Counted from the stretch's first letter, positions 3,147-43,406 are shown. The stretch: DNA of 64,000 bases from Caldilineaceae bacterium (GCA_019637695.1 JAHBVG010000006.1:29227-93226), one strand, 5' to 3'. The notes: generated from the letters alone by a model not told the origin. Numbers and translations are program-made.

Positions 3147-3181
3147 GCTCAATCTCTTCTTTGCCAGAGGAGATCTGCCAC

Positions 3182-5245: not shown

Positions 5246-5256
5246 CAATAACAGGC

Positions 5257-6831: not shown

Positions 6832-7117
6832 GTCAGGTTTAACTACCTGCACCTTACGGGTTTTTAACGCAGGGTAGGGAAATAGTCATGTAGAACGTAG
6901 AGTTTTGGGAATGTAGATTCCTTTTCTGTGTATTAGAATGGCGCTGCGTCTATGAACGAGGATGACTATAGAAGTACATGAATCCAGGCAAGAAATTTAT
7001 GTTCTTTGCAATCAACTTTTGGGCTTTCGGTAGCAAAGCTATAGAATGCATAAAAATATCCGGATGTGGATCTGTGCCTTCTGAAATGTATGCCCCCCGA
7101 AAAGAGAATGAAAACCT

Positions 7118-8695
7118 ATGCCCTTAGATAATGAGCATCCGCCGAAATTCCATACGCGCGGTCGATATTTATTTGGATTCTTACTCTGTCTGGCGATAAC
7201 TTTGATCCTAAGTGGGGATTACCTGTTTAAGTCAACAACGGCCCAAGCCTATGAAGCAACAAAAAATTCAAGTATCCTAGTCTACTCCCAAGAGGCGTCG
7301 AATTTTTTTCTACCCTGGGTCAGTAGTGAACGCGCCAGTAATGCAAATCCGCTCTTATGCCGCTTTGGGGTCAACGCGCCAAGCGGCGTGGGCAACTATC
7401 CGGTTGGCGAGTTACGGGTGGGGTGGTATCAAAATTACGCTACGAGTACAAACCCAGATCGTCCGCAAGGCATGGAATTCGCACAAACCATCCGCCTTTC
7501 TCAGACAAGCGCCAATACGTACAGCTATCGTCCTTCGGCCAGTATACTTACGCAAGCAGCGATTCTGAACCCTGGGGCAATCTGGTATATAGGCAATGAA
7601 CCGGATCGAAAGTTTTACCAGGACAGCATGGAGCCGCATCTTTATGCCAGAGCCTATTATGATCTCTACCATCTAATCAAAGAAACGGATCCTACGGCGC
7701 GTATTTTCGCTGGGTCAATCGTGCAGCCTACACTTATTCGTCTGCTCTACCTGGACAAAGTGCTGGACGCCTACCGCCAGACATATGGTTACGCGATGCC
7801 AGTAGATGGCTGGAGCATTCACAACTTCATTTTGAATGAAGCAAGTTGTGATGTCTTCCCTGGTGATTGTTGGGGTGCAGATATTCCCCCAGGCGTCAAT
7901 AGATCTGAGGGACTCCGAGTAGATGCTCAGGACAATGACAATTTTGGGATTTTTGTGGAGCAGATCCAGCGCTTCCGTCAGTGGATGTGGAACCGAGGTT
8001 ATCAAAATACTCCCCTTTTTCTGTCCGAATATGGAGTGTTGATGCCTCAGGGCCGCGGATTCAAGCCGGATTTTACCCCTGAGCGCGTGAACCTGTTTAT
8101 GGAGAAGACCTTCGATTATCTGTTGACAGCAACTGACAGCCAGTACGGCTACCCACCCGACGGAAATAGACTGGTGCAGCGCCTCTCCTGGTTTAGTACA
8201 GATTACCCAGAATTTAACGGACAGCTATTCGATTCTCAGAGCCGAGATTTTACTGAAATTGGACGCTTCTACAAGAACTATACCCAATCAATTCAAGAGA
8301 CAGTTGATTTTTATCCTATTAAAATTAGCACAGAACCGGCCTCGCTGATTTCTACGGGTGAGCCAATCACAGTTACGTTAATCGTTCAGATCGCTAACAG
8401 TGGGAACGGTCTGGCCGCCCAACGGGTACAGGTACGCTTTTACGACAAGGACCCAAGCCAGGGCGGCGCTCAAATTGGGGAGACTCAGAGTGTGATGCTC
8501 TCTGGCTGTGGTGATGTGGATCATGCATCGGTGCAGTGGACATCTCTTTCACAAGGTGTCCATACCGCCTATGTCATCGTATCCGGAGATCCAAATAGCC
8601 TGATGGAGGAAGGGAATGCTCTTGCCAATAACCAACTGCATCAGGATATCATGATTGGGACAGATCAACTCTTTCTACCCAAAGTCAACAGATAG
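7118..8695 (+). CDS. secreted/anchored glycoside-hydrolase-like protein (TIM-barrel 'GNEPD' type) with a C-terminal CARDB-like beta-sandwich
   Basis: N-terminal signal anchor. 'IWYIGNEPD' and 'FLSEYGV' are candidate acid/base and nucleophile strands of clan GH-A-like enzymes. The C-terminal 'ITVTLIVQIANSGNG...VQVRFYD' is CARDB-like. Confidence 0.55.
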   Translation: MPLDNEHPPKFHTRGRYLFGFLLCLAITLILSGDYLFKSTTAQAYEATKNSSILVYSQEASNFFLPWVSSERASNANPLLCRFGVNAPSGVGNYPVGELRVGWYQNYATSTNPDRPQGMEFAQTIRLSQTSANTYSYRPSASILTQAAILNPGAIWYIGNEPDRKFYQDSMEPHLYARAYYDLYHLIKETDPTARIFAGSIVQPTLIRLLYLDKVLDAYRQTYGYAMPVDGWSIHNFILNEASCDVFPGDCWGADIPPGVNRSEGLRVDAQDNDNFGIFVEQIQRFRQWMWNRGYQNTPLFLSEYGVLMPQGRGFKPDFTPERVNLFMEKTFDYLLTATDSQYGYPPDGNRLVQRLSWFSTDYPEFNGQLFDSQSRDFTEIGRFYKNYTQSIQETVDFYPIKISTEPASLISTGEPITVTLIVQIANSGNGLAAQRVQVRFYDKDPSQGGAQIGETQSVMLSGCGDVDHASVQWTSLSQGVHTAYVIVSGDPNSLMEEGNALANNQLHQDIMIGTDQLFLPKVNR

Positions 8696-8728
8696 TACCG
8701 TCGCTACAGTCTAAAGGGGGGAATTTTT

Positions 8729-10021
8729 ATGGGCCATACTGACGGTAATCCTATTCAGCAATCAGAACATATTGATGCTTCACGATTGCGTATTCTGATG
8801 ATCGCCCCCACCAGTTTCTTTTCCGATTATGGATGCCATGTGCGTATTTTTGAAGAAGCACGCGCGCTCCAACGGCTTGGACATCGGGTGACGATTGTTA
8901 CATATCGAAATGGACGAGATCTACCGGATCTGGATATACGCCGCACCTTGCCCATCCCATGGCGGCAGCATTATGAGGTCGGCTCAAGCCGGCATAAAGT
9001 TGCCTTCGATGCGCTGCTCGGTTTGAAAACAGTTCAGATACTCCTACATGAGCGATTTGATGTTATCCACGGACATCTGCATGAAGGAGCGTTAATTGGC
9101 CTGATCTTAGGGGGGATGTTTGGGTTGCCAGTGGTCTTCGACTTCCAGGGAAGCCTTACGGAGGAGATGATCGACCATCGGTTTTTGCGGCGCGGCGGGC
9201 GCGTCCATAATTGGTTGCGCAGGCTAGAGCAATGGATCGATCATACGGTACAAATAACGCTAACGAGTTCGGCTAACGCAGAAAGAATCCTGGTTGAAGA
9301 CTTTGGATCTGATGCAGCACGTATTCACATCCTCCCAGATTGTGTAGACGTTACCACATTCACACCGCTGACCGAACAGGGAATTACCAACCGCAATGCT
9401 GATCGTGCAAAGCTTGGTATCCCACAGGATGCCACAGTAATCTCGTATCTAGGATTGTTAGCAGAATATCAGGGAACCGATCTGCTTTTGCAAGCAATGC
9501 AGTATATCCGCGCACAACAACCGTCCACCTATTTGTTGTTGATGGGATTCCCAGGAGTAGATTTTTATCAGAGTGTAGCGCAACAACTTGGCGTTGCGGA
9601 TCGTGTCATTTTTACAGGGAGAATTCCTTACGAAGAAGCTCCTGCCTATCTGAAACTTGGTGATGTGGCCGTAGCCCCCAAGTTGAGTCTGACTGAAGGC
9701 GCTGGGAAGTTGCTGAATTATATGGCGCTAGGGTTGCCCACTGTTACATTTGATACCCCGGTTGCTCGTGAATACCTTGGATCCTGGGGAATCTATGCCG
9801 AACGTGGTAATCCCAAGAGCCTAGCGACAAAGTTAATCGATTTGATCAATGATCAAGAGACCCAAAAACAGATCGGTCATCAACTGCGTCAGCGCACGAT
9901 CAGGCAATATGACTGGAATCAAGCAGCCATTAAAATTGTTGATACATATCTAGAAGCACTCGGAAAATCTCTCCCACACGCAACACCCCGCCGTCAGATC
10001 TCGTCCGTGGATCCTTCCTAG
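8729..10021 (+). CDS. glycosyltransferase family 4 (GT-B)
   Basis: 'LRILMIAPTSFFSDYGCHVRI' N-terminal strand and a C-terminal EX7E-like region '...KLSLTEGAGKLLNYMALGLPTV'. Confidence 0.85.
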   Translation: MGHTDGNPIQQSEHIDASRLRILMIAPTSFFSDYGCHVRIFEEARALQRLGHRVTIVTYRNGRDLPDLDIRRTLPIPWRQHYEVGSSRHKVAFDALLGLKTVQILLHERFDVIHGHLHEGALIGLILGGMFGLPVVFDFQGSLTEEMIDHRFLRRGGRVHNWLRRLEQWIDHTVQITLTSSANAERILVEDFGSDAARIHILPDCVDVTTFTPLTEQGITNRNADRAKLGIPQDATVISYLGLLAEYQGTDLLLQAMQYIRAQQPSTYLLLMGFPGVDFYQSVAQQLGVADRVIFTGRIPYEEAPAYLKLGDVAVAPKLSLTEGAGKLLNYMALGLPTVTFDTPVAREYLGSWGIYAERGNPKSLATKLIDLINDQETQKQIGHQLRQRTIRQYDWNQAAIKIVDTYLEALGKSLPHATPRRQISSVDPS

Positions 10022-10031
10022 AGGGAGAGCT

Positions 10032-10904
10032 ATGCATAGTCAATTTCTGCACTTGCCAGTCGAATCCACAAGTTTCAAGGAATCGATCCCCTATATGGGG
10101 AAACGGGCAAAACTTCTCTTGCATTATCGATTCTTGATCTACAATCTGGTAATGCGAGATCTCAAGGCGCGCTATCGAAATAGCGTCTTGGGGTTCCTGT
10201 GGAGTTTGCTGAACCCGCTTGGGATGATGGTGGTTTTCACAGTTGTAGCAACGGTACTTTTCCGAGATCAGACAATTGAGAATTATCCAATTTTCCTGTT
10301 AGCGGGGATCTTGCCGTGGAACTTTTTCACGGCAAGCGTCATGACGGGTACAAATAGTGTGGTCTCAAATGGTCACCTAATTAAAAAAATCTATTTTCCG
10401 ACTGAAGTTCTGCCCATATCGGCAATTTTGGCAAATCTCGTCAATTTTTTGTTGGCGCTAACCGTCCTCTTTGCTGCGATTATAGTGTTGCGTGTTCCTT
10501 TCAGCCCCTGGCTTTGGCTGCTTCCCGTTGTGATCCTCATTCACACGCTCTTTGCACTGGGTGTTGTTTTCTTCTTGAGTACATTGCAGGTTTATTATCA
10601 TGACACCCTTATTGTGATGGACGTTGTCCTGTTGGCCTGGTTTTTCCTGACGCCGGTTTTTTATTCAGCCAGTATGTTACCAGTCTCTTACACTGTTTGG
10701 GGCATCACGCTTGATGTACGGCGTCTTTTCTATATTCTTAACCCAATGGCTTCACTGATTAATATGTATCGGGATCTGCTCTACGGTGGAACTCGAACGG
10801 ATCTTGACTTTTTTCTGAGAACTGCGGTCACCGCGGTGATTGTATTCCTTGCGGGGTACTGGTTCTTCATTCGATACAGCGGCAATTTTAGCGAAGAGGT
10901 ATGA
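10032..10904 (+). CDS. wzm: ABC-2 type polysaccharide export permease (Wzm/TagG-like)
   Basis: 'LIYNLVMRDLKARYRNSVLGFLWSLLNPL' is the hallmark ABC-2 N-terminal motif. Six hydrophobic segments. The start could instead be the ATG at 10095. Confidence 0.85.
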   Translation: MHSQFLHLPVESTSFKESIPYMGKRAKLLLHYRFLIYNLVMRDLKARYRNSVLGFLWSLLNPLGMMVVFTVVATVLFRDQTIENYPIFLLAGILPWNFFTASVMTGTNSVVSNGHLIKKIYFPTEVLPISAILANLVNFLLALTVLFAAIIVLRVPFSPWLWLLPVVILIHTLFALGVVFFLSTLQVYYHDTLIVMDVVLLAWFFLTPVFYSASMLPVSYTVWGITLDVRRLFYILNPMASLINMYRDLLYGGTRTDLDFFLRTAVTAVIVFLAGYWFFIRYSGNFSEEV

Positions 10905-10971
10905 TGCCACGCTCTATTGCCGCATTGATTGCCAATCCTGGCAATGTACTGATTTCAGAGAGGATAGCTCC

Positions 10972-12105
10972 ATGCTCAAACAAATCGCAGTGATTATCTT
11001 CGCGGTATTTGCAGGGTTGATTTTTCACGGCCAGTCTATCGCAACTCAAGGCCCGATGGCGGAATTGCAAATTGAGACTGAGTCAAAAGTAACCGAATCA
11101 AGCTCACCTTTCTTTGTGCAATACGGAATTGCAGGCAAACCCAGCAGCCTGGCTGTGGAGAAACCACACCGGGTCTGGGTGACGTTGCCCGATATCGATG
11201 CAATTGGCGTCATCTCTGTTACGCAGATAGAGCAGACGACAACATCATATGAAGTCACCACCTACTTCCTGGAGGGGGGTAGCAAGCCCTACGATTTAGC
11301 CATCCAGGGAGATACAATCTGGTTTACCGCTTATGGCACAAACAAGATTGGTCGCCTAAATTCCACGACAAATACGCTGCAAACATATACTCTCACAGAT
11401 AGTGACAGCGGCCCCACGGGGATTCACGTCGCTACCAATGGCATTGTGTGGTTTGCCCAGCAAAAAGCCAATAAGTTAGGGAGGTTGGATCCGTCGTCGG
11501 GGGCGCAGCAATCCTATGCCTATCCAATCGCGGACGGTGGTCTCGATAGGGTCGCTACTTTCGGCGCAGATTCCGTTTGGTTCACGGCGCCCAAAGTAGA
11601 CAGGGTAGTCTATTTTGATGAATCTAAACCACCCCAGGAGCAATTCATTAACATTCCCACTTTCAGCAATCACCTTTTCCCCTATACCCGGCCTACGGGC
11701 ATTGCGTTGGAATCCGCCCAGATAGCTTGGGTCAGCGTGGCTGGTGGGAATAGTATCGGACGTTACGATCCTGGCACTTTGGCTTTGTGGAGATGGGATC
11801 AACTCCCTTCACAGGGCGAAGAAGAAACCGGGTCCATACACATCGCCCTGACTGGGGGTAATGGAGCCAGAAATTTGTTTTATGCAAATGAAATGACAAA
11901 GCGTATTGGCCGCGTCCATATCGGCACGAATACCGCCGTTGGCCGAATTCAGGAAATATCTGCCCCCGGATCCAATTGTACACCTCTGGGTATCAAGGCA
12001 GATAGTGATGGTAACGCCTGGTTCACATGTGGAGCAGCCAATACAGTCGTGTATTGGAAATCTCCATTTTTGCTGGACATTTACGCCCCGCTCATTTCAA
12101 AGTAA
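10972..12105 (+). CDS. secreted beta-propeller protein with Vgb (virginiamycin B lyase, COG4257)-like repeats
   Basis: The ATG at 10972 follows a gagagga RBS and begins a signal peptide (MLKQIAVIIFAVFAGLIF). Repeated blades of the form 'P.GI....G.VWF.....NK(I/L)GRL(N/D)' occur. Confidence 0.6.
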   Translation: MLKQIAVIIFAVFAGLIFHGQSIATQGPMAELQIETESKVTESSSPFFVQYGIAGKPSSLAVEKPHRVWVTLPDIDAIGVISVTQIEQTTTSYEVTTYFLEGGSKPYDLAIQGDTIWFTAYGTNKIGRLNSTTNTLQTYTLTDSDSGPTGIHVATNGIVWFAQQKANKLGRLDPSSGAQQSYAYPIADGGLDRVATFGADSVWFTAPKVDRVVYFDESKPPQEQFINIPTFSNHLFPYTRPTGIALESAQIAWVSVAGGNSIGRYDPGTLALWRWDQLPSQGEEETGSIHIALTGGNGARNLFYANEMTKRIGRVHIGTNTAVGRIQEISAPGSNCTPLGIKADSDGNAWFTCGAANTVVYWKSPFLLDIYAPLISK

Positions 12106-12261
12106 GGGAAAGTCGACTATCTATTTGAAGACGCATTTGCAGAGGAAGCCCCAATCAATCCCTCAACATCCTGTTTCATAGCTAGTCGAGTGGATATGTT
12201 GTCTGGATGTCGAAGATGAAACCTTCTGTACCTGATCCTATGGATCAAGGAGTGAACCCCT

Positions 12262-13760
12262 GTGGGAAAAAACTATACACATATCATAAACCGGACCAAG
12301 TATCTTGTCCTTTCCCTGATGCTGATAGTAGCAATCGTAGGGTCAGTTACGATCCACCCATCGATTGCCCTGATGCAGGAACCAACCTCGGCGGATCCCG
12401 TTGTTAGCCCAGCCGAACAGACAGCAACACACAAACTCTGGTTGCCTACGATTCATACAAATTCTTGCAGTGGCTTTCGCAACACTACAAAAAACCATTT
12501 CGGAATTCAGGTATATGGCTATATGGGTCCTCAAAGCCCCTATTATTGTGAACTCGTTGCCAGTGGCGCAACCTGGGTGCGGAATGAAGCTAGTTGGCGC
12601 AGCACAGAACCAACAAATGTTTCTCCACCTGAATACCGATGGCAAACGATTGACCGAGTGGTTGAGACGGCTACTCAAGGCGGATTCAACCTAATCCTTA
12701 CCATTAACTACAATCCATCTTGGGCAGCTACCTATTATCAAGGGCCAATTGACAAGGTGCCAGTGAAAAGATTTGCTGACTTTGTAGCTGCACTAGTGGA
12801 AAGATATGATGGAGACGGCATTAACGATGCCCCAGGTTCACCTGTGGTCGAGCATTTTGAGTTGTACAATGAACCCGATGCCTGGATTGCTCGCCCCAAT
12901 GATATTCGCTGGGGCAACAGCGGCAAGCAATAATATGCCGGAAATGCTAGCGGCGGTATATCCAAGCCGCCAAAGCTGCGAACCCCAATGCAAAGATACT
13001 GCTTGGCGGCATTGCCTACGATTGGTTCATTGAACATAATGGACCTTTTGTGCGCACCTTCCTTGATGCGGTATTGCAGAATGGAGGCGGCGCTCACTTC
13101 GACATCATGAGCTTCCACCAGTATCCCCCGTTTGCCGCAAACTGGGGAGCGCCAAATGGTCCCGGTTTGGTTGAGAAGACAAATGCCATCCGGCAAAAGC
13201 TTGCAGAGTATAATCTTCAGAAACCGATTATGATCACAGAAGCTGGGATGCACAGCAACTCCCCAGAGAGCCCGGAAAATCAGGCCCGCTATGTTACCAT
13301 GCTCTATACCCAGGCATTGGTGACCAATGTGGAGACACTGATCTGGTTTATGCTCTATGATCCGGGCGAGAGCTACCCATTTCGAAATGGTCTCGTAACA
13401 AACGTCAGCAGTGCCAATCCGCGGCCACAACGCAAACCAGCATTCGTTGCATACCAAACCGCCGCATCAAAGTTAGCCGGGGCTCGGTTTGAGCGTACTT
13501 TTAGCTCAGAAGAAACCAAAGATAAGGAGATGGTTGTTTACAAGTTCATTGATAAAAACAACAAACAACTGTTTGTAGCCTGGCTTGGTCCAATTTCGCG
13601 GAATGATAGCAAGTCACTCAACTTGCCCGGTACATCGGCCATTGTAAGCGACATCTATGGGACGACGCGGACTGTTAACGATGGTGATGATGGTAAAGTA
13701 GACGGAAACATTACACTGTCTGTTGGCGCGCAGCCGGTGTATGTGCATATTCATCCCTAG
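12262..13760 (+). pseudogene. glycoside-hydrolase-like gene (GH-A clan, 'YNEPD' type) disrupted by two closely spaced frameshifts
   Basis: ORF 12262..12933 ends at TAA 12931. The homologous reading continues 'EMLAAVY' in a second frame and '[23 protein letters not shown]...' in the third. The third frame opens after TAG 12948-12950 and is the frame of ORF 13050..13760. Catalytic-type motifs 'FELYNEPD' and 'IMITEAG' lie on opposite sides of the break. Confidence 0.6.
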
Positions 13761-13767
13761 AATGATA

Positions 13768-13839
13768 GGCTGTAGAAACCTGGTTTTTGATACTGCGTTT
13801 GAACTTCAGCTAGCAGTCAGACACCGGGTTTCTACAGCC
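13768..13839. repeat. 13-bp perfect inverted repeat (GGCTGTAGAAACC / GGTTTCTACAGCC) with a 46-nt loop
   Basis: Arms at 13768-13780 and 13827-13839. Sits between the GH pseudogene stop and the next start codon. Confidence 0.65.
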
Positions 13840-13864
13840 AAGAGCTAGTTCTGAGACTTGTAAA

Positions 13865-15484: not shown

Positions 15485-15631
15485 TGATATCTGAACAATG
15501 AATGCAAAGATAATCAATGGAGTATCTGAAGGAAGCCCGTAAAACAGGAAGTTGACATCTATGCATAAATGTATGCGTCAGTGTTTACCTATGTACCGGG
15601 CAATTATCTGAATAAAGGCAATATCTGTAGT

Positions 15632-19620: not shown

Positions 19621-19646
19621 ATAAAGCGCTATAGAGGGTATCGTAC

Positions 19647-20357
19647 ATGTTCCAGAGTATTCGCAGAATCTTCAGGGGCGTCAAAGCACCGTCTGCCTCC
19701 CAAAACCAAATGATTCGGAGCCAGCAGGCCAACCTTGTTCCCTTTGACGTGACGGCGTTTGCCGGTGAGTTTGAGCTGGGCTGGCTGGAGCCGGTCAAGA
19801 GCGCTCCAGTCTGGATGTCGCGCTCTGAACGTTTGATGATGTTCAGCCTAGCTTTTTGTTTACGCCCTCAGCGTTATCTGGAGATCGGCACATTTCAAGG
19901 TGGTTCCGCTCTTGTGGTCGGCAGTGCGTTGGATGCGCTGAAGAGCAATGGGCAAATGTACCTGGTTGACCCGACACCCAAAATCGCACAAGAAGATTGG
20001 TTGAAGATCGCCCATCGCGCTGAGTTGTTCAAAGGGTATTCGCCGGACATCTTGCGCAAGGTGGCTGCCAAAGCTGTGCAGCCGTTCGACCTGGTGCTGA
20101 TCGACGGCGATCACACTTACGCAGGGGCGAAACGTGATGCTGAAGGTGTGCTTGCATACGTAGGGCCGGGTAGCTACATTGTATTTCATGATAGCTTCTT
20201 CCCAGAGGTTCGTCGGGCGATCGACGAGTTCGTCGACGCGCATTCCGGGCGCATTGTTGACTTTGGGTTGATGACGCGCGAGGTAACCGTCGACAAAAGC
20301 GAAGATGGGGGCAGAGTTGAGTGGGGCGGTCTGCGGATATTGTATATTCCGGCCTGA
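19647..20357 (+). CDS. class I SAM-dependent methyltransferase (Methyltransf_24 / O-methyltransferase family 3-like)
   Basis: 'YLEIGTFQGGSALVVGSAL' (motif I), 'FDLVLIDGDHTYAGAKRDAE', 'GSYIVFHD'. Confidence 0.8.
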   Translation: MFQSIRRIFRGVKAPSASQNQMIRSQQANLVPFDVTAFAGEFELGWLEPVKSAPVWMSRSERLMMFSLAFCLRPQRYLEIGTFQGGSALVVGSALDALKSNGQMYLVDPTPKIAQEDWLKIAHRAELFKGYSPDILRKVAAKAVQPFDLVLIDGDHTYAGAKRDAEGVLAYVGPGSYIVFHDSFFPEVRRAIDEFVDAHSGRIVDFGLMTREVTVDKSEDGGRVEWGGLRILYIPA

Positions 20358-20437
20358 AATCCACTTTGTCGCTTGAGCAGATCATCGCGCCGATGCTGCA
20401 CTTTCCGTCCGCACACCAGATCAAGCCTGTCGAATCG

Positions 20438-20900
20438 ATGACGAACACAGTGTACTCACCAACAGATCACATACACATAGAAAGACGCTTCTCAGCGGTG
20501 TATGCGTTCGTGGCGGTGATCGTCAGCGCACTGCTCGCAGTTTTTCCGACGACCAGACTCTCGATCACCGCTGACCTGCGCATGATGCTGCAGCCCTGGT
20601 TGCTCAACCAGAGCTTTGTTCCCTATCTTCAGATTGCAGATGAGCGCAGTCCACTGCATCTCTAATTGCTGGTATGGCTCCAACGAATCGTCGGGTATGA
20701 TGGCATCCTGGCGCTGCGAATCGCTCACGCGACAGTGTTGTCCTCCTATTTGTCTTGCTCAACGGCTGAGTTTGGCGGCTTTACGGGCCGTAGGCGGCGA
20801 TTGTGGGGTTTGCGTTTATCTGAGCTTTTGCCGTCCGTTTCGGCTTGACCACGTTTTGGTTCAATTCGGTTCTCCTTTCCTGCTTTATTTTGCTAAATGA
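20438..20900 (+). pseudogene. decayed N-terminal fragment of a GT-C-like membrane protein
   Basis: MTNTVYS...AVYAFVAVIVSALLAVFP...IADERSPLHL is followed by an in-frame TAA (20663). The same frame then continues 'LLVWLQRIVGYDGILALRIAHATVLSS' and afterwards shifts frame. No full-length ORF exists. Confidence 0.3.
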
Positions 20901-21020
20901 TTTCTCGAGTCACAAGCCGACAACACGAGTCATCGGAGGCGGGTTGCTGCTTGACATTGGCGTTTTCTTGAAATTTGAAACCAACAAAAATACTAAAATT
21001 TTGGTACATTAGGAGAAGTT

Positions 21021-21872
21021 ATGGGACTGTTTCATACACTCAGCAACGTATTCAAGAGAAGGACTATCTGGCGTCAACATGAACCGTGGCAAAGCATTTC
21101 GCCAGAGCCTGAGATCGAGCCGTCGAATCCACCTGATAGAGAGTCCTTGATTGCGCTGGTCAACTCATTTCCGTACTGGTATCAGCGCATATACCTGGGC
21201 CAGGGCGTCTACACCCTGCCCGTAGTGCAACTTCACAACTACGTCTGGCAGACGATTAAAACAATGCTGCCAGACGGCTTCAAGGGTGCCTCGATTCTTG
21301 ATGTCGGAACAAATGCAGGATACTTTTGCATCCAGGCCAAACTAAATGGTGCGGCCCAGGTGGTCGGTGTCGATTTTGAGGACAGGTATCTGAAGCAGGC
21401 CGAAACCTGTCGATCCATCTGGAAGCTCGATATTGATTATCGACAGACCGACATAGACCAGCTTCAACTCCATACGATGGGACAACGCTTCGATCTCGTG
21501 ATCTTCACAGGCATTTTATACCATTTGAAGAATCCGCTCGGGGTGTTGGAGCAGATGGCTAGCCTGTGCAATGACGCCATAGTTGTCGAGACTGAAGTGA
21601 TTTCACCTAGACACAGAAACGTCCTCCATGTGCGACAGGGGCCTCTTGGACGCTCAGTTGTCACGCCAAGCCACACAGGCTTCATGAAATTTATCGAAAA
21701 ATATGAGCTGAACGGCGATGGCTCGAACTGGTGGGTTCCAGATGAAGAATGCGTGCTGGGCATGTTGCGTACAGCAGGTTTCAAATATTTCTCACAACCT
21801 CACTACTTCGGAGAGACACGTATGCTGGTGGTGGCCACTCAGCAACCGCAATCCATCCTTCAAATTGCGTGA
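21021..21872 (+). CDS. class I SAM-dependent methyltransferase (DUF1698 / CmoB-like subfamily)
   Basis: 'YWYQRIYLGQGVYT', 'ILDVGTNAGYFCIQAKLNGAAQVVGVD', 'FDLVIFTGILYHLKNP', 'GSNWWVP'. Confidence 0.8.
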   Translation: MGLFHTLSNVFKRRTIWRQHEPWQSISPEPEIEPSNPPDRESLIALVNSFPYWYQRIYLGQGVYTLPVVQLHNYVWQTIKTMLPDGFKGASILDVGTNAGYFCIQAKLNGAAQVVGVDFEDRYLKQAETCRSIWKLDIDYRQTDIDQLQLHTMGQRFDLVIFTGILYHLKNPLGVLEQMASLCNDAIVVETEVISPRHRNVLHVRQGPLGRSVVTPSHTGFMKFIEKYELNGDGSNWWVPDEECVLGMLRTAGFKYFSQPHYFGETRMLVVATQQPQSILQIA

Positions 21873-22093
21873 TGCAGGTTTTCTTCCTATCGCGGAGATA
21901 CTTGCGTGCAGCAAGATCGCTGTCGCCAGGCATCTGCCGCACCTGAGCGGCAAGCAGCTTGATAATTTGCATGATGTGCGCGACAGCGGCTGAATCAAAC
22001 ACGGCAGAGCAGATCGCGTTCATCGGGGAGCGATGCGCCTTGGCAACAAGCTGACAATTTGGATGAATACTCCCTCAGTTTTCAAGAGGTGGA

Positions 22094-24832
22094 GTGGACG
22101 ATTACATGAAGTCTGAACATCCCTATGAACAGGATTCGGTTGACACACCTGAAGCGACTGAAGTTGTAGCGAAGCCAACAGATAGCAGCCGTTTACGTGT
22201 CGCAGGAGTAGGCGAGCATGTAGGGGTGTTCCTTTTATACGCCCTGCTCACAGTGTTTTACACGTGGCCGCTTGTCGCCCAGTTCACGTCTGCGATCATT
22301 GGCAGTGGCGACGCTCGTCACCATCTCTGGATTTTGTGGCACACACGTGAAGCTCTTTTAGGGCATGATGGGATGTTTTACACGAATCTGCTGTTTTTCC
22401 CCACAGGCATCTCTCTGTTGACGCATGCATTAGGTCCGGTGCTTGGATTCATCGCATTGCCGTTCTGGGGATTTGGACCAGAGGCAGCCAACAATGGAAC
22501 AGTCTTTGTTGCCTTCGCAATAACGGGCTATGCCATGTACCTTCTGGCGCGTTCACTTGGCTTCTCCATCTCGCTTTCCTTCTTTGCCGGTCTTGTCTTG
22601 CTGGTGGCACCGATTCATGTAGCAGCATTGTACGGCCACATGAACAAGGTATTTCTCGCATTGATTCCGCTGACGATGCTCACCGCACTGAAAGCGGTGG
22701 ACATGCGCAGAAACCGTTGGTGGGCGGTTCTGACTGGAGTGTTCATGCTCTTGACGCTGCTGCATTCAGCCGAGCAGTTTGTCTATGCAGGCTTTGGGAT
22801 AGGGATCATCCTGGCAGTCAATCTACTCCGTGTGAGTCCAGAGCAGAAAGCTCAGCAGTTAAAAGGAGCAGTGTGGGTTACTGCGTTCGTGCTATTGTTT
22901 TCCTTACCCCTATTGTTCGCGATTCAGTACGCATCGTCGAACAGCGGGATTAAAGTAGATCGAAATATTGAATCGCTTTTGCACCAACCTGACGTTTTGG
23001 CATTTATTATTCCTATAGACTTTGGCTTTGCTGCTAGTACTTTTTCGGCATTTTCACAAGAGTTTCATCGCTTTGAAGGTTATGTTTTTCTTACCTGGAC
23101 TGGAATTTTCCTTTTATTAGTTGCATTCCTGAAGAATAGGCGCAGCTCCCTGGCTTGGCTGGTGTTGTCTGTCAGTAGCATCGTTTTTGCACTTGGCCCC
23201 AGATTGAGTTTCGCAGGTACAACCAAATTCACTGAATATGAATTGCCTGTGATGCTCCCATATGCGTTGCTAACCGGCCTTCCCGGACTTGATTACATGC
23301 GCACCCCTGGTCGTTTCATGCTTATTGGCTACACTGCATTAGGAATTGTGATGGCCTATGGACTACAGGCACTGGTCCACAAAATGACTCGAACAGGGAG
23401 ATACGTTGTATCGGCTGCCATTATTACTGTATTGCTACTAGAGACTTGGCCACAAGCATCGCGTCCCATGGAAAGTCTGCCGTCTGTGTCCCCTTTCTTT
23501 GAACAACTTGCACAGGATGAAAACAGGTATGGCATACTTGATTTGCCAATTAGACCTGATTCACCATATGAATTCTCTAACTGGCATATCTATTTCTCCT
23601 CATATTATCAGGCGTTCCAGATGACTCATAAGAAGGGCATTGCAGCGGGCTACTTGTCACGGTATTACGATGTTCATCCGACACTGGGCTACCTCATTTC
23701 GGAAAACGCACCGATGGACACAGCACTGCAAACCGACATTACAATCGATGGTCAGCCGGGCAATCTATTTATCAATCTCGAATATGAGCTGGCGCGCCAT
23801 CTCTATCGCTATGTAGTGCTGCATAATTCGCAACCTGCGATTCCTGAGTTGAGCGAAGATTCGGCGGGAATAATAGCTGCTCAGTCTCTGATCAAGACAG
23901 TTTTCGGTGAACGTTCACCAATCTACGAGGATGATCTAGTCAAAGTTTATGCAGTCGAGCCACCGGAGGATCAGCAGCTTGTCCCCAATTTCCTGATGTT
24001 TGACCGCAGCGACGTTTCGGCGCTCGCTCCAAGCGGTAGGCGTTGGATCATAACGCCAGCGCGCTTTCTCGTAACATCGGAGGCGCCGCAACTGGCCGAA
24101 CTGGTAATCAATCCTGCGATTCTTCACAAGCCTGAGGAAGATGAGTATCACCAACAGGCACTGCTAACGGTGACTTCGGCTGGCAGTGCCTTGCAGATAT
24201 CGTTACCGATCAAGATTGATGAAGGAATCCGCGTCCCCGTGGCATTGGTGCAAGGTAGTCAATTTATCACGCTTACACTTACGTCTAATGAAGACTTAAC
24301 AAGAACAGTCAACATGGACACAAGCACCCTGAACCTCGACACACTCACCATCACAAGCCACGGGTGCGATGTCTTTACCGAATCTGTGCGACAGACCTGT
24401 GAGGGTAAAGAGCTTCCAGACACAGAAAAGGTAATTGTCGCCTACGTAAGCGGCTGGCAAGGCATAGAGAGCAATGGCGAGATAGAGTGGCGATGGGCTG
24501 CTTCGCCCAGTTCATTGTGGGTATACTCACCCTCAACCGGCCAACTGCGTTTCACGCTGACGCCAATCGCCCTACACGATCCTGGCTCCCCTGACGGCAA
24601 AGGCGCAAAGGGTGCGTTAAACATTACATCAAACGGAAGTGAAATGCAGCAACTGATTGTGGAAATCGGCATACAATCTGTGATAAACTTAAAGATAAGC
24701 AAAGGATGGAATGAGGTCAAACTGTCACTAGATGCAGGGAATTTTCGCCCTGCGGACTTTGACCCTTCCACAGGAGATTATCGACAATTGAGTTTTGCAT
24801 TGATGCCTATTGACGTGATGCTAACGCATTAA
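22094..24832 (+). CDS. large polytopic membrane protein (GT-C / YfhO-like) with a C-terminal extracytoplasmic domain of about 450 aa
   Basis: 912 aa. The N-terminal 'TVFYTWPLVAQFTSAIIGSGDARHHLWILWH' resembles membrane glycosyltransferase-like families. More than 10 hydrophobic segments. The start may be the ATG at 22106. Confidence 0.5.
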   Translation: MDDYMKSEHPYEQDSVDTPEATEVVAKPTDSSRLRVAGVGEHVGVFLLYALLTVFYTWPLVAQFTSAIIGSGDARHHLWILWHTREALLGHDGMFYTNLLFFPTGISLLTHALGPVLGFIALPFWGFGPEAANNGTVFVAFAITGYAMYLLARSLGFSISLSFFAGLVLLVAPIHVAALYGHMNKVFLALIPLTMLTALKAVDMRRNRWWAVLTGVFMLLTLLHSAEQFVYAGFGIGIILAVNLLRVSPEQKAQQLKGAVWVTAFVLLFSLPLLFAIQYASSNSGIKVDRNIESLLHQPDVLAFIIPIDFGFAASTFSAFSQEFHRFEGYVFLTWTGIFLLLVAFLKNRRSSLAWLVLSVSSIVFALGPRLSFAGTTKFTEYELPVMLPYALLTGLPGLDYMRTPGRFMLIGYTALGIVMAYGLQALVHKMTRTGRYVVSAAIITVLLLETWPQASRPMESLPSVSPFFEQLAQDENRYGILDLPIRPDSPYEFSNWHIYFSSYYQAFQMTHKKGIAAGYLSRYYDVHPTLGYLISENAPMDTALQTDITIDGQPGNLFINLEYELARHLYRYVVLHNSQPAIPELSEDSAGIIAAQSLIKTVFGERSPIYEDDLVKVYAVEPPEDQQLVPNFLMFDRSDVSALAPSGRRWIITPARFLVTSEAPQLAELVINPAILHKPEEDEYHQQALLTVTSAGSALQISLPIKIDEGIRVPVALVQGSQFITLTLTSNEDLTRTVNMDTSTLNLDTLTITSHGCDVFTESVRQTCEGKELPDTEKVIVAYVSGWQGIESNGEIEWRWAASPSSLWVYSPSTGQLRFTLTPIALHDPGSPDGKGAKGALNITSNGSEMQQLIVEIGIQSVINLKISKGWNEVKLSLDAGNFRPADFDPSTGDYRQLSFALMPIDVMLTH

Positions 24833-24865
24833 GCCGCGATGAGAGAATCGTCAGGTTCGTAATCT

Positions 24866-27040
24866 ATGGAGAGCAATATGAAAACCTACACTCATTGGAG
24901 TGTTGTGATACTGATGTGCAGCGTGTTGACTTGCATAGGGTTGATGGCTCATCCGCTGCGAGCTGAAACGCTTGGCAATCTGCGGTATGTAGATTCATTG
25001 ATCGGGAACGACAACGGCAACAACTGCCTCAATCCCGCCACACCTTGCCGCACCATCCAACGCGCAATCAACCAGGTGGTTAACGGCGATACGATCCTGG
25101 TTGCATCCGGCGTCTATACCTATGCCGGCACAGACAACCCTTGCGATCAATATCTGGGCGGACTCAAAGCCGTTGTGTGTATTGTCAACAAGCAAGTAGT
25201 TCTGCGGGGAGGCTATCCTTCTGGTAACTGGAATGTGGCTGATCCGGCCACTTACCCCACGATCATTGATGGCGAAGCCCGTGCGCGCGGCGTATATGTC
25301 CTGAGTTCAGATCCTCGCAAGCCGTCAGAAGCTGGCATCAAGATGGAAGGTTTCATTGTCCAGAATGGACTGATTCAGGGTGCTTCATCTGGCAATGACA
25401 CGCAAACATTCGCATTTGGCGGCGGAATGCTGACGGATTATGCGTCGGTTGAGCTACGCAACATGCGGTTTGAGAATAACCGGGCGATCGGCGGCGGCAG
25501 CCAGAATGTATACGGCGGAAGCGCCTCTGGCGGCGGTGTGGCAATCAGACGCACGCCCAAACGCGCAACCCTTGAGAATATTGTATTCAGTGAGAATCGC
25601 GCCGAGGGAGGATCTGGGCGAACACGAGGCGGTTACGGCATCGGTGGTGGACTCTATCTCCTATTGGCAGAAGCGGATGGGAGGAACCTCGAGTTCTACA
25701 ACAACAGGTCTTTGGGAGGCAGCACGCAAGGGAATGGGCAAACACCCGACTACCAGAAGGGGGATTCGTTTGGCGCTGGCGTCACGGTGATGGGATACGC
25801 AGACGTGAATTTATACAATGTTGTAGCACGTGACAATCAGGCAATCGGTGGCAACGCCGCAACCAACGCTGGCGGAGCGTTTGGCGGCGCAATCAAATCA
25901 GAAGGTATGCCAACCCTTGACCTCAATGGTGACGGTGTATATGAAACCGCAACACTGAGAATCTTCGGCTGCACATTGACCAACAATCTTGCTCAAGGTG
26001 GAGACGCCGCCATAGGTGGGATCTCCGCCGGTGGAGCACTAGAGACGATCCATAGTACGCTACTCGTCGAGCGCTGCAACATACAAAACAACAGATCACA
26101 AGGTGGAAATGGCAGCACAGCGCAGGGACCAGCGGGTGGCGGCGGTCTTTACTTACAGAACATCTTTTATCCCAACCCGACCGCTACAGTCAAAGATTCC
26201 CTCATTGCCCACAATAGTGTCAGGGCAGGCAACGGCCCAACAGTTGGCGGTGGTGGTGGTGGCATTTGGCTACAAGGGGTCGAGGCAAGGCTGGAACACA
26301 ACACCATTGTGGGTAATCGCACCCTCACCTCTCCCCTGCAAGGAGCAGCCATCCTGGTCATGAGCGACGGAACCCAGGGGCCTCGTCCAGCCTATATCCG
26401 CTACAACATCATTGCCAACCACACGGACAGCAATGCCTCCGCCCTTCATGTCAAACTGGCGAATACAGCCAATCTGTCTCATAACCTCTTCCACGGCAAT
26501 CATAGTCAGGTCAATCAATTCGAGGTTGGTACCATCACGGGGATGGACTCATCGGTAATGGCCGATCCTTACTTTGTGACCGAAGACCCGAATGTGGATG
26601 GCATCTCCTACCAGATTGCGGCCACGTCGCCGGCGGTAGACCAGGCAATAGGCAGCCAGGAGAGTATAGATATCCACAACCGACCTCGTACACGTGTGCC
26701 CGACATTGGCGCATACGAAGCCCAACCCTTCCAAGTGTGGGTCTTCCCCACATCATCAGGAGAGTTGACTGTGTACTGGGGAATCCACCCAGGGATCATG
26801 GAGTATCGGCTTACCATCAACTGTCCCAACATTCAGGCGAGGACTCGAAAACTCCAGTGTGGGGATCGGATCAGCTATTCTGGCGCAGTAAGTGGCGCGG
26901 TTCTGGATGGACTGGAGAATTACAAGATTTACGACATCGTAGTTGCTGCTATGGGACCGGATGGGGATGCTCTTCTGTCTACCAGCCGCCAGGCGATGCC
27001 GACTGATATCTTGTTGTTCATCCCAACAGTCTCTCGCTAG
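24866..27040 (+). CDS. secreted right-handed parallel beta-helix repeat protein with a C-terminal Fn3-like domain
   Basis: Signal peptide. Gly/Asn-rich repeated turns ('NNRAIGGG', 'ENRAEGGSG', 'NNRSLGGS', 'DNQAIGGNA', 'NNLAQGGDA', 'NNRSQGGNG') are typical of pectate-lyase-fold proteins. Confidence 0.7.
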   Translation: MESNMKTYTHWSVVILMCSVLTCIGLMAHPLRAETLGNLRYVDSLIGNDNGNNCLNPATPCRTIQRAINQVVNGDTILVASGVYTYAGTDNPCDQYLGGLKAVVCIVNKQVVLRGGYPSGNWNVADPATYPTIIDGEARARGVYVLSSDPRKPSEAGIKMEGFIVQNGLIQGASSGNDTQTFAFGGGMLTDYASVELRNMRFENNRAIGGGSQNVYGGSASGGGVAIRRTPKRATLENIVFSENRAEGGSGRTRGGYGIGGGLYLLLAEADGRNLEFYNNRSLGGSTQGNGQTPDYQKGDSFGAGVTVMGYADVNLYNVVARDNQAIGGNAATNAGGAFGGAIKSEGMPTLDLNGDGVYETATLRIFGCTLTNNLAQGGDAAIGGISAGGALETIHSTLLVERCNIQNNRSQGGNGSTAQGPAGGGGLYLQNIFYPNPTATVKDSLIAHNSVRAGNGPTVGGGGGGIWLQGVEARLEHNTIVGNRTLTSPLQGAAILVMSDGTQGPRPAYIRYNIIANHTDSNASALHVKLANTANLSHNLFHGNHSQVNQFEVGTITGMDSSVMADPYFVTEDPNVDGISYQIAATSPAVDQAIGSQESIDIHNRPRTRVPDIGAYEAQPFQVWVFPTSSGELTVYWGIHPGIMEYRLTINCPNIQARTRKLQCGDRISYSGAVSGAVLDGLENYKIYDIVVAAMGPDGDALLSTSRQAMPTDILLFIPTVSR

Positions 27041-27050
27041 TGTTTTTTGT

Positions 27051-30957: not shown

Positions 30958-30966
30958 GGTGTCAAA

Positions 30967-31701: not shown

Positions 31702-31843
31702 TTTCCCCGTCTCCAAGATTTTGAAATGTCCACCATGAATTCCGATCTTTCAAGATCCTGCAAAGTTGAACAAACGATTGAACCAGTTCATTGAGGAAAA
31801 AGCAGAGCGCATGGTCCAGTTGTGCAATTGGCTGAGGTGGTAA

Positions 31844-39550: not shown

Positions 39551-39584
39551 AGATCTTGTACAATTATCAATTGAGTCCGAATCT

Positions 39585-42309: not shown

Positions 42310-42499
42310 AGGCAAAAGTGGTGGGGGAGTTGCAGGTTTGTAAGTGGCAACCTACGCTTGTTCACGCGCTATGCACTACTCATTACGAATCCCGCACGCA
42401 CTACAACTCGCCCCTCGCAACTCGCAACTCGCTCCCCCTGTTTTGCGCTTTCCCCCTTCCTTGATATGATAGGGCAGTTTGCGCTGCCTGAAATGAGCC

Positions 42500-42898: not shown

Positions 42899-42967
42899 AT
42901 GCGTGGTGGTCTAGAATCAGGATGCGTTGCACACTCGATAGTTGCTGGATAGTTCCTGAGGAAATCG

Positions 42968-43396: not shown

Positions 43397-43406
43397 TGGT
43401 ATAGAA

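What the first reader, a model, noticed from the sequence alone, without database searches (positions are those of the whole stretch)
7304..27037. Shared 10-12-residue extreme C-terminal tail on three unrelated secreted proteins: a possible unrecognised sorting or attachment tag
Seen: the GH-like/CARDB protein ends '...GTDQLFLPKVNR*' (8669-8692). The Vgb-like beta-propeller ends '...LLDIYAPLISK*' (12079-12102). The beta-helix/Fn3 protein ends '...PTDILLFIPTVSR*' (27011-27037). The consensus is [TL]-D-x-h(1-2)-[FYL]-[LIA]-P-x-[VI]-[NS]-[RK]-stop.
The three catalytic folds are different, and all three proteins have N-terminal signal sequences.
Related 'hhLPxh' strings sit about 25-30 aa after the signal anchors of the two GH-like proteins: 'NFFLPWVSS' (7304-7327) and 'KLWLPTIHT' (12436-12459).
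Known C-terminal sorting signals are LPXTG, PEP-CTERM, GlyGly-CTERM and the T9SS CTD. All differ from this tail in length or in having a following TM helix. Here the motif is the very end of the protein, and no sortase or exosortase gene is present in the window.
Inference: this could be a tag for covalent or non-covalent attachment to the glycan made by this locus, or a recognition signal for processing.
Basis: partly seen in the sequence, partly recalled or inferred. Interest (0 to 1): 0.7.

Follow-up and report, generated by a model that had tools for sequence, protein, structure and literature searches.

The report
YLP-box tail on Chloroflexota exported proteins
Three unrelated exported enzymes in this Caldilineaceae genome end in the same eight-residue tail, which is a diverged form of the 'YLP-box', a short putative surface-sorting tag that NCBI's protein-family library already lists but whose mechanism is unknown.

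Summary
All three tails sit at the stated coordinates.

Evidence:
- Their homologues keep the tail down to about 35% identity in all three families. The core is hydrophobic-[Y/F]-L-P-x-[V/I]-x-[R/K], followed by the stop codon or by 1-6 more residues.
- In an ORF census, 23 of 317 Chloroflexota genes end this way, against 1 of 383 genes from other phyla. For shadow ORFs the counts are 1 of 662 and 0 of 852.
- Carriers are enriched for N-terminal hydrophobic export segments (p = 1e-8).
- A metagenome scan found the tail on about 15 unrelated types of secreted protein, in unrelated gene contexts.
- AlphaFold2 places it outside the folded domains.
- Codons vary synonymously, so selection acts on the peptide, not the DNA.
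- A related box also recurs in the linker after the signal peptide of the GH/CARDB family.

The tag is not unrecognised. NCBIfam holds two models, NF050076 and NF053834, both named 'YLP-box putative sorting motif'. They hit canonical tails but miss the three diverged tails in this window.

The tag is not specific to this glycan locus. No partner enzyme was found and no publication describes it.

Best reading: an orphan ultrashort signal for sorting or retention at the cell surface. The mechanism is inferred, not shown.

The parts
8669..8692 (+). C-terminal YLP-box variant LFLPKVNR, last 8 codons of the GH-A/CARDB protein; the stop codon is at 8693-8695
   Evidence: Translation. Scoring matrix gives 9.4 bits against a control maximum of 3.6. 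All six homologues in the genome loci, and nearly all of 120 database homologues, keep the box at or near the end. AlphaFold2 shows the last strand at residues 506-514 and a coil tail at 515-525, with pLDDT falling from 78 to 47.
12079..12102 (+). C-terminal YLP-box variant IYAPLISK (Ala replaces Leu before Pro), last 8 codons of the Vgb-lyase-like beta-propeller
   Evidence: Translation. Scoring matrix gives 15.8 bits. Of the 67 single-domain relatives (460 aa or shorter), 50 carry a box in their last 30 residues, typically as ...EW(R)PPYFxxx[YF]LPx[VI]x[RK] plus a few residues.
27014..27037 (+). C-terminal YLP-box variant LFIPTVSR (Ile replaces Leu before Pro), last 8 codons of the beta-helix/Fn3 protein
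   Evidence: Translation. Scoring matrix gives 15.6 bits. 104 of 120 homologues carry the box in their last 30 residues, and 87 of these end exactly at the [RK]. Box-bearing homologues go down to 34% identity, and versions lacking Fn3 keep the box. AlphaFold2 shows the last strand at residues 702-710 and a coil tail at 711-724, with pLDDT falling from 71 to 33.
7304..7327 (+). N-proximal YLP-like box FFLPWVSS in the disordered linker between the signal segment and the catalytic domain of the GH-A/CARDB protein
   Evidence: It lies in the AlphaFold2 low-confidence segment, residues 37-74. Alone it is weak at 4.4 bits. Across the family, 17 of 110 linkers carry a box against 0.9 expected. Three of the four homologues that show no C-terminal box at all (P0295, P0309, P0387) carry an N-proximal copy; the fourth (P0291) has neither.
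12436..12459 (+). N-proximal YLP-like box LWLPTIHT after the signal segment of the second GH-like gene
   Evidence: The hexamer LWLPTI scores 11.4 bits; a fraction of 5.5e-5 of control hexamers score as high. The orthologue L005:161-1747 has VMLPYL before its catalytic domain, not aligned residue for residue.
7118..8695 (+). Carrier 1: exported clan GH-A glycoside-hydrolase-like TIM barrel plus CARDB domain (525 aa)
   Evidence: Weak CARDB match in Pfam. Homologues carry PF11790 and PF07705. Foldseek best matches are GH128, GH39, GH158 and CARDB structures. Identical to NCBI KF893_02750, annotated 'hypothetical protein'.
10972..12105 (+). Carrier 2: exported Vgb-lyase-like beta-propeller (377 aa from the ATG at 10972; the mechanical ORF starts at 10840)
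   Evidence: Pfam Vgb_lyase at E = 1e-30. The signal-like start MLKQIAVIIFAVFAGLIF is visible.
24866..27040 (+). Carrier 3: exported right-handed beta-helix plus Fn3 protein (724 aa; the NCBI record starts 4 codons later)
   Evidence: Weak choice_anch_Q and NosD matches. Homologues carry PF13229 and PF00041. AlphaFold2 gives a beta-helix plus a C-terminal beta-sandwich.
12262..13760 (+). Second GH-like gene, split into two ORFs (12262-12933 and 13050-13760) by a frameshift; it has the N-proximal box and no C-terminal box
   Evidence: Both halves align collinearly with the intact 528-aa and 494-aa orthologues L005:161-1747 and L007:4729-6213.
5257..45562 (+). Context: conserved envelope-polysaccharide gene cluster. 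It holds a Wzx-like flippase, a Wzm/Wzt ABC exporter with a Wzt_C domain, a PMT_2-like GT-C membrane protein, two further large polytopic proteins, methyltransferases and many GT2/GT4 enzymes.
   Evidence: Pfam and NCBIfam results. The cluster is syntenic in Caldilinea, Anaerolineae and Ardenticatenaceae genome loci and there too encodes the box-bearing GH/CARDB and beta-helix enzymes.

Best explanation
The three tails are diverged copies of the Chloroflexota YLP-box. This is an ultrashort linear motif, hydrophobic-[Y/F]-L-P-x-[V/I]-x-[R/K]. It sits at or within a few residues of the C-terminus of Sec-exported proteins, or sometimes in the linker just after the signal peptide.

Shown:
- The peptide is under selection at the protein level.
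- It is portable between unrelated folds.
- It is confined to the ends of exported proteins.
- It lies outside the folded domains.
- In this sample, every box-bearing protein that has an organism name is from Chloroflexota.

Inferred: after export, the exposed peptide is recognised by a still unidentified envelope component that keeps or places the protein at the cell surface or sheath. It would thus play the role that LPXTG, PEP-CTERM or T9SS domains play in other phyla, but without a transmembrane segment.

Three observations favour docking of a linear peptide (non-covalent, or ligation with a very small leaving group) over a classical membrane-embedded sortase-type cleavage: the box works from either end, it tolerates 1-6 trailing residues, and it is once found in tandem.

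In this locus the tag would hold a glycoside hydrolase, a beta-propeller and a beta-helix enzyme next to the machinery that makes and exports an envelope polysaccharide.
For: - Tails confirmed at the stated coordinates.
- Conserved in homologues of all three families. Position statistics: Y/F 85-95%, L 61-76%, V/I 75-88%, R/K 61-88%, stop directly after in 87/102, 54/99 and 21/49.
- Genes ending in the box: 23/317 in Chloroflexota against 1/383 in other phyla; shadow ORFs 1/662 and 0/852. Internal occurrences are at background level.
- N-terminal hydrophobic segment in 20/23 tagged against 79/294 untagged genes, p = 1.3e-8.
- The metagenome scan found the tail on FG-GAP, RCC1, subtilase+cohesin, cohesin-only, DUF11/DNRLRE, NAGPA, LamG, MAM/choice-of-anchor J, CAP, Big_6, beta-helix, PMP-repeat and SdrD-B-like proteins, in unrelated contexts.
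- NCBIfam NF050076 and NF053834 ('YLP-box putative sorting motif') match the last 8-11 residues of these proteins, and of 10-12 of 148 homologue tails.
- Homologous domains elsewhere are choice-of-anchor or PEP-CTERM families.
- AlphaFold2 shows the tail as a coil beyond the last strand in two carriers.
- Synonymous codons and all three stop codons are used, and downstream DNA is not conserved.
- N-proximal copies are enriched: 17/110 against 0.9 expected.
Against: - The window's own tails are not detected by either NCBIfam model even at E <= 10. Their membership rests on orthology and on a home-made scoring matrix whose training set includes homologues of these proteins.
- No receptor, protease or transpeptidase was identified, and no recurrent neighbouring gene was found near tagged genes.
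- No experimental or published evidence exists for localisation, cleavage or attachment.
- Signal peptides were judged by a hydrophobicity heuristic, not by a dedicated predictor.
- The genome samples are biased, because they are loci centred on tagged genes. The per-genome frequency (about 4% of flanking genes) is therefore only rough.
Confidence: 0.6

Rival explanations
1. The box is a substrate motif for a sortase-like transpeptidase. It is read as L-P-x-[V/I]-[small], analogous to L-P-x-T-G. The enzyme cleaves after the beta-branched residue, releases the last two or more residues and links the protein covalently to peptidoglycan or another envelope polymer.
For: The positions parallel LPXTG: L at -1, P at 0, any residue at +1, a beta-branched V or I at +2 where LPXTG has T, and often a small A, S, G or T at +3. 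Variants with 1-6 extra residues would simply be longer leaving groups. From general knowledge, other transpeptidases accept very short leaving groups (butelase N-HV, penicillin-binding proteins D-Ala).
Against: The transmembrane segment and basic cluster that define sortase and exosortase signals are absent. With N-proximal copies, cleavage would attach the signal-side fragment rather than the enzyme. None of the cluster proteins scanned matched a sortase or exosortase family, and nothing in the rest of the window reads as one. The +3 residue is often large in the beta-helix family (L 21%, R 17%).
Confidence: 0.15
2. The tag is specific to the polysaccharide made by this conserved locus. It attaches or docks proteins to the Wzm/Wzt-exported glycan, possibly through one of the GT-C-like membrane proteins.
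For: Three tagged enzymes lie inside the cluster. The cluster, including its tagged GH/CARDB and beta-helix genes, is syntenic across the same Chloroflexota orders that use the box. L002 has four tagged genes in one such locus.
Against: Most tagged proteins found by the metagenome scan are of unrelated families and lie in unrelated neighbourhoods without these cluster genes. Hydrolases and lyases are common in polysaccharide loci for reasons unrelated to tagging. Nothing links the hydrophobic peptide to a carbohydrate. The glycan could still be the general anchor for all tagged proteins; that broader version is not excluded.
Confidence: 0.15
3. The tail is a recognition element for envelope quality control or processing, not for localisation. 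Examples would be a PDZ-type or C-terminal-processing protease, a chaperone, or a degron for unexported precursor.
For: Short exposed hydrophobic C-terminal peptides are classic ligands of PDZ-domain proteases (general knowledge). The tail is unstructured and accessible.
Against: Typical PDZ ligands end in a hydrophobic residue, whereas this tail ends in R/K. The box also works from the N-proximal linker and with trailing residues. Its carriers are the classes of surface proteins that elsewhere bear anchoring signals.
Confidence: 0.08
4. The tail is not a tag. It is a chance resemblance, an intrinsic last beta-strand of each fold (for example propeller closure), or the translation of a conserved DNA element at gene ends.
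For: The motif was defined after the fact from three short, hydrophobic strings. Beta-propellers often close with a terminal strand.
Against: 0 of 1235 control C-termini reach the scores of the window tails. The census gives 23/317 against 1/383, and shadow ORFs 1/662. The box follows at least 15 different domain types and survives loss of the Fn3 domain. AlphaFold2 places it after the last strand. Codons, stop codons and downstream DNA vary freely.
Confidence: 0.02

Closest known systems
NCBIfam NF050076 'sort_motif_YLP' and NF053834 'ultrashort_CTERM' (YLP-box putative sorting motif-containing protein)
   Same: These 10-11-position models align to the very last residues (x-Y-L-P-x-V-x-R) of canonical tails in related proteins, and to homologues of two or more of the window families. 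They share the placement at the extreme C-terminus of exported proteins and the same putative role.
   Different: The window's three tails (F-L-P, Y-A-P, F-I-P) fall below detection by both models. The N-proximal copies, the variants with 5-residue extensions and the link to a conserved polysaccharide cluster are not evident from the model names. No paper or sorting enzyme is attached to the models as far as I could search.
LPXTG signal and sortase (Gram-positive cell-wall anchoring)
   Same: A C-terminal tag on Sec-exported surface proteins of a single-membrane bacterium, with an L-P-x-[beta-branched] core. Carrier families overlap (SdrD-B-like, DUF11, cohesin, subtilases).
   Different: The box has no hydrophobic membrane segment and no basic cluster after the motif. 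It has V/I instead of T and no conserved G. It can lie near the N-terminus. No sortase was found here.
PEP-CTERM and exosortase (EpsH), the sorting system associated with exopolysaccharide loci
   Same: A short C-terminal tag on many diverse exported proteins. Tagged genes are embedded in a polysaccharide biosynthesis locus. Relatives of the Vgb-like and beta-helix carriers bear PEP-CTERM in other phyla.
   Different: PEP-CTERM is tripartite: motif, transmembrane helix, Arg cluster (10.1101/2023.06.07.544157). Here the whole signal is about 8 residues. No exosortase-like family matched the membrane proteins of the locus.
Ultrashort terminal targeting peptides of eukaryotes (peroxisomal PTS1 -SKL, ER retrieval -KDEL)
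   Same: These work like the proposed mechanism: a few residues at the free C-terminus are read by a receptor, with no cleavage or membrane segment. This is an analogy from general knowledge.
   Different: There is no homology and the compartment and organisms differ. The YLP-box is longer, hydrophobic, and also functions away from the free end.

Membership tests
NCBIfam YLP-box putative sorting motif (NF050076 / NF053834) | Match to the curated HMMs (cut-offs 15 and 10 bits) | tested here: not met
   The three window proteins and their isolated 30-aa tails give no hit even at E <= 10. Canonical relatives do. L131 scores 15.4 and 14.6 bits, L134 15.3, L163 12.3, L146 12.1 and L090 12.3. Of 148 homologue tails, 12 match NF053834 and 10 match NF050076; these are, with choice-of-anchor Q, the families matched by most members. 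The window copies are therefore sub-threshold variants placed by orthology.
NCBIfam YLP-box putative sorting motif (NF050076 / NF053834) | Core residues [Y/F]-L-P-x-[V/I]-x-[R/K] | tested here: met
   F-L-P-K-V-N-R fits fully. Y-A-P-L-I-S-K and F-I-P-T-V-S-R each have one substitution at the Leu position; A and I occur there in 3-11% of homologues. Scoring-matrix values are 9.4-15.8 bits against a control maximum of 3.6.
NCBIfam YLP-box putative sorting motif (NF050076 / NF053834) | Location at the extreme C-terminus | tested here: met
   The stop codon follows the R/K directly in all three. The same holds in 87/102, 54/99 and 21/49 homologues.
NCBIfam YLP-box putative sorting motif (NF050076 / NF053834) | Carrier proteins are exported (N-terminal signal) and belong to many unrelated families within a lineage | tested here: met
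   N-terminal hydrophobic segment in 20/23 tagged against 79/294 untagged genes. About 15 Pfam architectures carry the tail. The export test is a heuristic, not SignalP.
LPXTG / sortase substrates | LPXTG pentapeptide followed by a hydrophobic membrane segment and a basic tail | tested here: not met
   Only 4 residues follow the Pro. T is replaced by V/I and there is no conserved G, no membrane segment and no basic cluster.
LPXTG / sortase substrates | Cognate sortase encoded in the genome | not testable with these tools
   None of the 17 window proteins scanned matched a sortase family, and the remaining translations do not read as one. The rest of the genome could not be read.
PEP-CTERM / exosortase | PEP motif, transmembrane helix and Arg cluster, with an EpsH-family exosortase, often in an EPS locus | tested here: not met
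   The tail lacks the tripartite design. The polytopic proteins of the locus match PMT_2 (GT-C) or nothing, not exosortase.
T9SS C-terminal domain | A folded beta-sandwich domain of 70-100 residues at the C-terminus | tested here: not met
   The shared element is about 8 residues long and is predicted as coil after the last strand. The preceding domains differ (CARDB, Fn3, propeller).

The most novel reading that the evidence does not exclude
The YLP-box is read by an entirely new, membrane-segment-independent sorting machinery of single-membrane filamentous Chloroflexota. This would be a receptor or ligase that recognises an 8-residue linear peptide at either end of a mature exoprotein and fixes it to the envelope. 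The target could be the phylum-conserved Wzm/Wzt-exported polysaccharide whose gene cluster carries tagged enzymes. That would be a new class of bacterial surface-anchoring system with a minimal, engineerable tag.
Probability: 0.25. Interest if true: 0.75.

Novelty: new member of a known kind. Interest (0 to 1): 0.45.

Why it matters
It is poorly understood how Chloroflexota, abundant filamentous bacteria of sludge, sediments and hot springs, keep enzymes on their surface.

An 8-residue tag with no membrane segment differs in design from every characterised bacterial sorting signal. It is catalogued only as 'putative', with no enzyme, no paper and no experiment behind it.

This analysis adds four things:
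- The current HMMs miss diverged copies, such as the three here, which NCBI annotates as 'hypothetical protein'.
- The same box recurs near the mature N-terminus.
- Tagged hydrolases are fixed components of a polysaccharide cluster conserved across orders.
- The tag is an exposed, unstructured peptide.

If the machinery were found, it would explain surface display in a major phylum and could provide a very small tag for protein display.

Tried and rejected
- NCBIfam and Pfam at E <= 0.1 on the window proteins showed nothing for the tails. The YLP-box models surfaced only at E <= 10, and only on canonical tails from other loci.
- A viral-contig scan served only as a control: 17 matches, 1 of them in an ORF of 100 aa or more.
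- About two thirds of the 120 metagenome pattern matches were chance hits in short out-of-frame ORFs. About 12 long-ORF hits were cytoplasmic proteins (ThiC, citrate synthase, ROK kinase and others) and were set aside.
- Full-text searches for YLPLV-type strings, 'YLP-box', Chloroflexi sorting signals and choice-of-anchor found no description of the motif.
- The search for a recurrent neighbouring gene around tagged genes found none.
- A YdjM-like membrane hydrolase at 4703-5245 was considered as a partner, but it has no counterpart in the syntenic loci.
- Tandem boxes, which might indicate avidity, were found only once, in L157.
- DNA-level explanations (repeat or terminator) were rejected from codon and downstream variation.

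Full report
**Observation.** The sequences are ...GTDQLFLPKVNR* (stop at 8693-8695)...LLDIYAPLISK* (stop at 12103-12105) and ...PTDILLFIPTVSR* (stop at 27038-27040). In a six-frame scan of the window, only these three real genes end in the full box. The few other ORFs that fit a looser P-x-h-x-[RK] ending are short or shadow ORFs, and internal matches are at background level.

The window is from a Caldilineaceae MAG. Carriers 1 and 3 are 100% identical to NCBI proteins KF893_02750 and KF893_02815, both annotated 'hypothetical protein'.

The carriers are unrelated:
- Carrier 1 is a clan GH-A TIM-barrel hydrolase-like domain plus CARDB. The best Foldseek matches are GH128, GH39 and GH158.
- Carrier 2 is a Vgb-lyase-like beta-propeller.
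- Carrier 3 is a beta-helix with a weak choice-of-anchor-Q match, followed by Fn3.
Each starts with a hydrophobic export segment.

**Conservation.** Of 120 homologues of the beta-helix protein, 104 carry the box in their last 30 residues, and box-bearing ones go down to 34% identity. They typically end in ...PTD-h-h-h-[YF]-[L]-P-x-[VI]-x-[RK]*. This includes 617-aa versions that lack Fn3, where the box follows the beta-helix directly. Among the 16 without a box, a group ending ...DIGADEATP (no organism names given) lacks it altogether.

All six GH/CARDB homologues in the genome loci, and nearly all of 120 database homologues, have the box at the end or followed by 2-6 residues. Of the 67 single-domain Vgb-like representatives (460 aa or shorter), 50 carry a box in their last 30 residues, typically as ...EW(R)PPYFxxx[YF]LPx[VI]x[RK] plus a few residues.

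Across families the shared core is: hydrophobic at -3, Y/F at -2 (85-95%), L at -1 (61-76%), P, any residue, V/I at +2 (75-88%), any residue, R/K at +4 (61-88%).

**More than chance.** The genome-collection scan gave 22 Chloroflexota loci and 36 loci from other phyla.
- Genes ending in the box number 23/317 in Chloroflexota against 1/383 elsewhere (Fisher p = 1e-7). Shadow ORFs give 1/662 and 0/852.
- Internal matches per residue do not differ between the groups.
- Tagged genes have an N-terminal hydrophobic segment in 20/23 cases against 79/294 for untagged genes (p = 1.3e-8). The three exceptions include a likely 5'-truncated ORF.
- A matrix trained on homologue tails scores the window tails at 9.4, 15.8 and 15.6 bits, whereas none of 1235 control C-termini exceeds 3.6 bits.
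- Codons at box positions vary synonymously, all three stop codons occur and downstream DNA is unrelated. Selection is therefore on the peptide.

**Breadth.** I ran a metagenome scan for Y-L(CTG)-P-x-V-x-R-TGA. A similar pattern in viral contigs gave 1 of 17 matches in a long ORF.

The carriers found were FG-GAP propellers, RCC1 repeats, a subtilase with cohesin, small cohesin-only proteins, DUF11/CBM96/DNRLRE, NAGPA, LamG, MAM/choice-of-anchor J, CAP, Big_6, beta-helix, PMP repeats and SdrD-B-like domains. Their neighbourhoods are unrelated to each other and to this locus. No gene family recurs next to them. Four further tagged genes turned up among about 100 flanking genes.

The tag is therefore general for exported proteins, not a feature of this gene cluster.

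**Already catalogued.** Scanning these canonical proteins against NCBIfam at E <= 10 revealed two curated models:
- NF050076.1 sort_motif_YLP (11 positions, cut-off 15 bits);
- NF053834.1 ultrashort_CTERM (10 positions, cut-off 10 bits).
Both are described as 'YLP-box putative sorting motif-containing protein'. They align to the last 8-11 residues, and several hits are above the cut-off.

Among 148 C-terminal fragments of homologues of the three window families, these two models and choice-of-anchor Q are the families matched by most members (12, 10 and 11 members). The window's own diverged tails are missed by both models, as they were in the first scan at E <= 0.1. I found no paper describing the motif. 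The catalogue of sorting signals in 10.1101/2023.06.07.544157 deals with tripartite signals and does not mention Chloroflexi.

**Anatomy.** AlphaFold2 models are confident overall (mean pLDDT 88 and 89).
- In the GH/CARDB protein the last strand ends at residue 514. Residues 515-525 are coil, with pLDDT falling to 47.
- In the beta-helix/Fn3 protein the last strand ends at residue 710. Residues 711-724 are coil, with pLDDT falling to 33.
The box is an exposed overhang, not part of a fold.

**N-proximal copies.** FFLPWV alone is not significant, but LWLPTI is unusual. In the GH/CARDB family a box lies in the disordered linker between the signal segment and the conserved PLCRFGVN start of the catalytic domain in 17 of 110 homologues. 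Shuffling predicts 0.9, with a maximum of 5 in 2000 shuffles.

Three of the four homologues that show no C-terminal box at all carry the N-proximal one (the fourth, P0291, has neither), and several homologues have both. Similar boxes directly follow the signal peptide in other proteins of the syntenic loci (L008, L010, L014).

**Context.** The region 5.2-45.5 kb is a polysaccharide cluster. It holds a flippase, a Wzm/Wzt ABC exporter with Wzt_C, a PMT_2-like GT-C protein, two further large polytopic proteins without family matches, methyltransferases and many GT2/GT4 enzymes. The cluster is syntenic across Caldilinea, Anaerolineae and Ardenticatenaceae genomes, together with its tagged GH/CARDB and beta-helix genes. 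None of the cluster proteins scanned matched a sortase, exosortase or rhombosortase family, and nothing else in the window reads as one.

**Interpretation.** What is shown is a short, exposed, protein-level motif. It is portable between folds, confined to the termini of exported proteins, and seen in this sample only in Chloroflexota wherever an organism name is available. What is inferred is its function.

The carriers are the protein classes that bear LPXTG, PEP-CTERM or T9SS signals in other phyla, and several belong to 'choice-of-anchor' families. The most likely role is therefore retention or placement at the cell surface.

The following argue against a classical sortase or exosortase mechanism and for recognition of a linear peptide by a soluble or surface-exposed partner:
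- there is no membrane segment;
- the box works from either end;
- it tolerates trailing residues.
A sortase-like reading (L-P-x-[beta-branched]-[small]) remains possible. A specific link to this locus's glycan is not supported, although the glycan could be a general anchor.

**Verdict.** This is a real and well-observed feature. It consists of diverged members of a motif that curators have already named but nobody has explained. The interest is moderate. The open question is the machinery, which these tools could not reach.

Noticed in passing
window 12262-13760: A GH-like gene is split into two ORFs (12262-12933 and 13050-13760) by a frameshift near 12930. Intact 528-aa and 494-aa orthologues exist at L005:161-1747 and L007:4729-6213. 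It is either a pseudogene or an assembly indel.
   Followed up: partly
window 16963-19620 and 22094-24832 (also 13865-15484): Three large polytopic membrane proteins lie in the polysaccharide cluster. The 885-aa one matches PMT_2 (GT-C) and its orthologues share a conserved C-terminal ...LGFLLDWV... motif. The 912-aa and 539-aa ones match no Pfam or NCBIfam family. They may act on the exported glycan from outside the membrane.
   Followed up: partly
L180:65-952 and L188:3-611: Two related metagenome proteins have an N-terminal P-loop (weak PHROG 'Zot-like toxin' match, E = 0.002), one membrane helix near the end and a short outside tail ending in a YLP-box (...YTIYLPLVAR, ...HTIYLPAVFR). This may be a filamentous-phage assembly protein using the host's tag.
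   Followed up: partly
L157:88-372: A 94-aa exported protein carries two YLP-boxes 13 residues apart (...PLAYLPYVSRGAEPEPQPQARRLYLPLVLR). It is the only tandem case seen among the proteins searched for one: 390 database proteins and the genes of 27 metagenome loci.
   Followed up: yes
window 47906-50557 (- strand): The replicative helicase DnaB (883 aa) appears to be interrupted by an intein-like insert (CLAGDT...VHNS) of roughly 400 residues.
   Followed up: no
window 847-3054: A lipoprotein-like protein (LSACGG lipobox) is made of two tandem copies of what reads like a BMP/PnrA-like substrate-binding domain. It sits next to an ABC ATPase gene (3161-4699). It is exported but carries no YLP-box.
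   Followed up: no
window 45642-47096 (- strand): A 484-aa protein carries two DnaC/IstB-like P-loop ATPase modules in tandem behind a Cys-rich N-terminus (CPKCKG...CDC). It lies next to a gene that reads DnaD-like and near DnaB, an unusual helicase-loader arrangement.
   Followed up: no
L132:3-1244: A tagged beta-helix-like protein begins with a CTLRAAI motif. From memory this resembles the 'CSLREA' N-terminal domain catalogued for Chloroflexota surface proteins. The same contig holds two more YLP-box genes (4766-5689 and 6169-7425).
   Followed up: no
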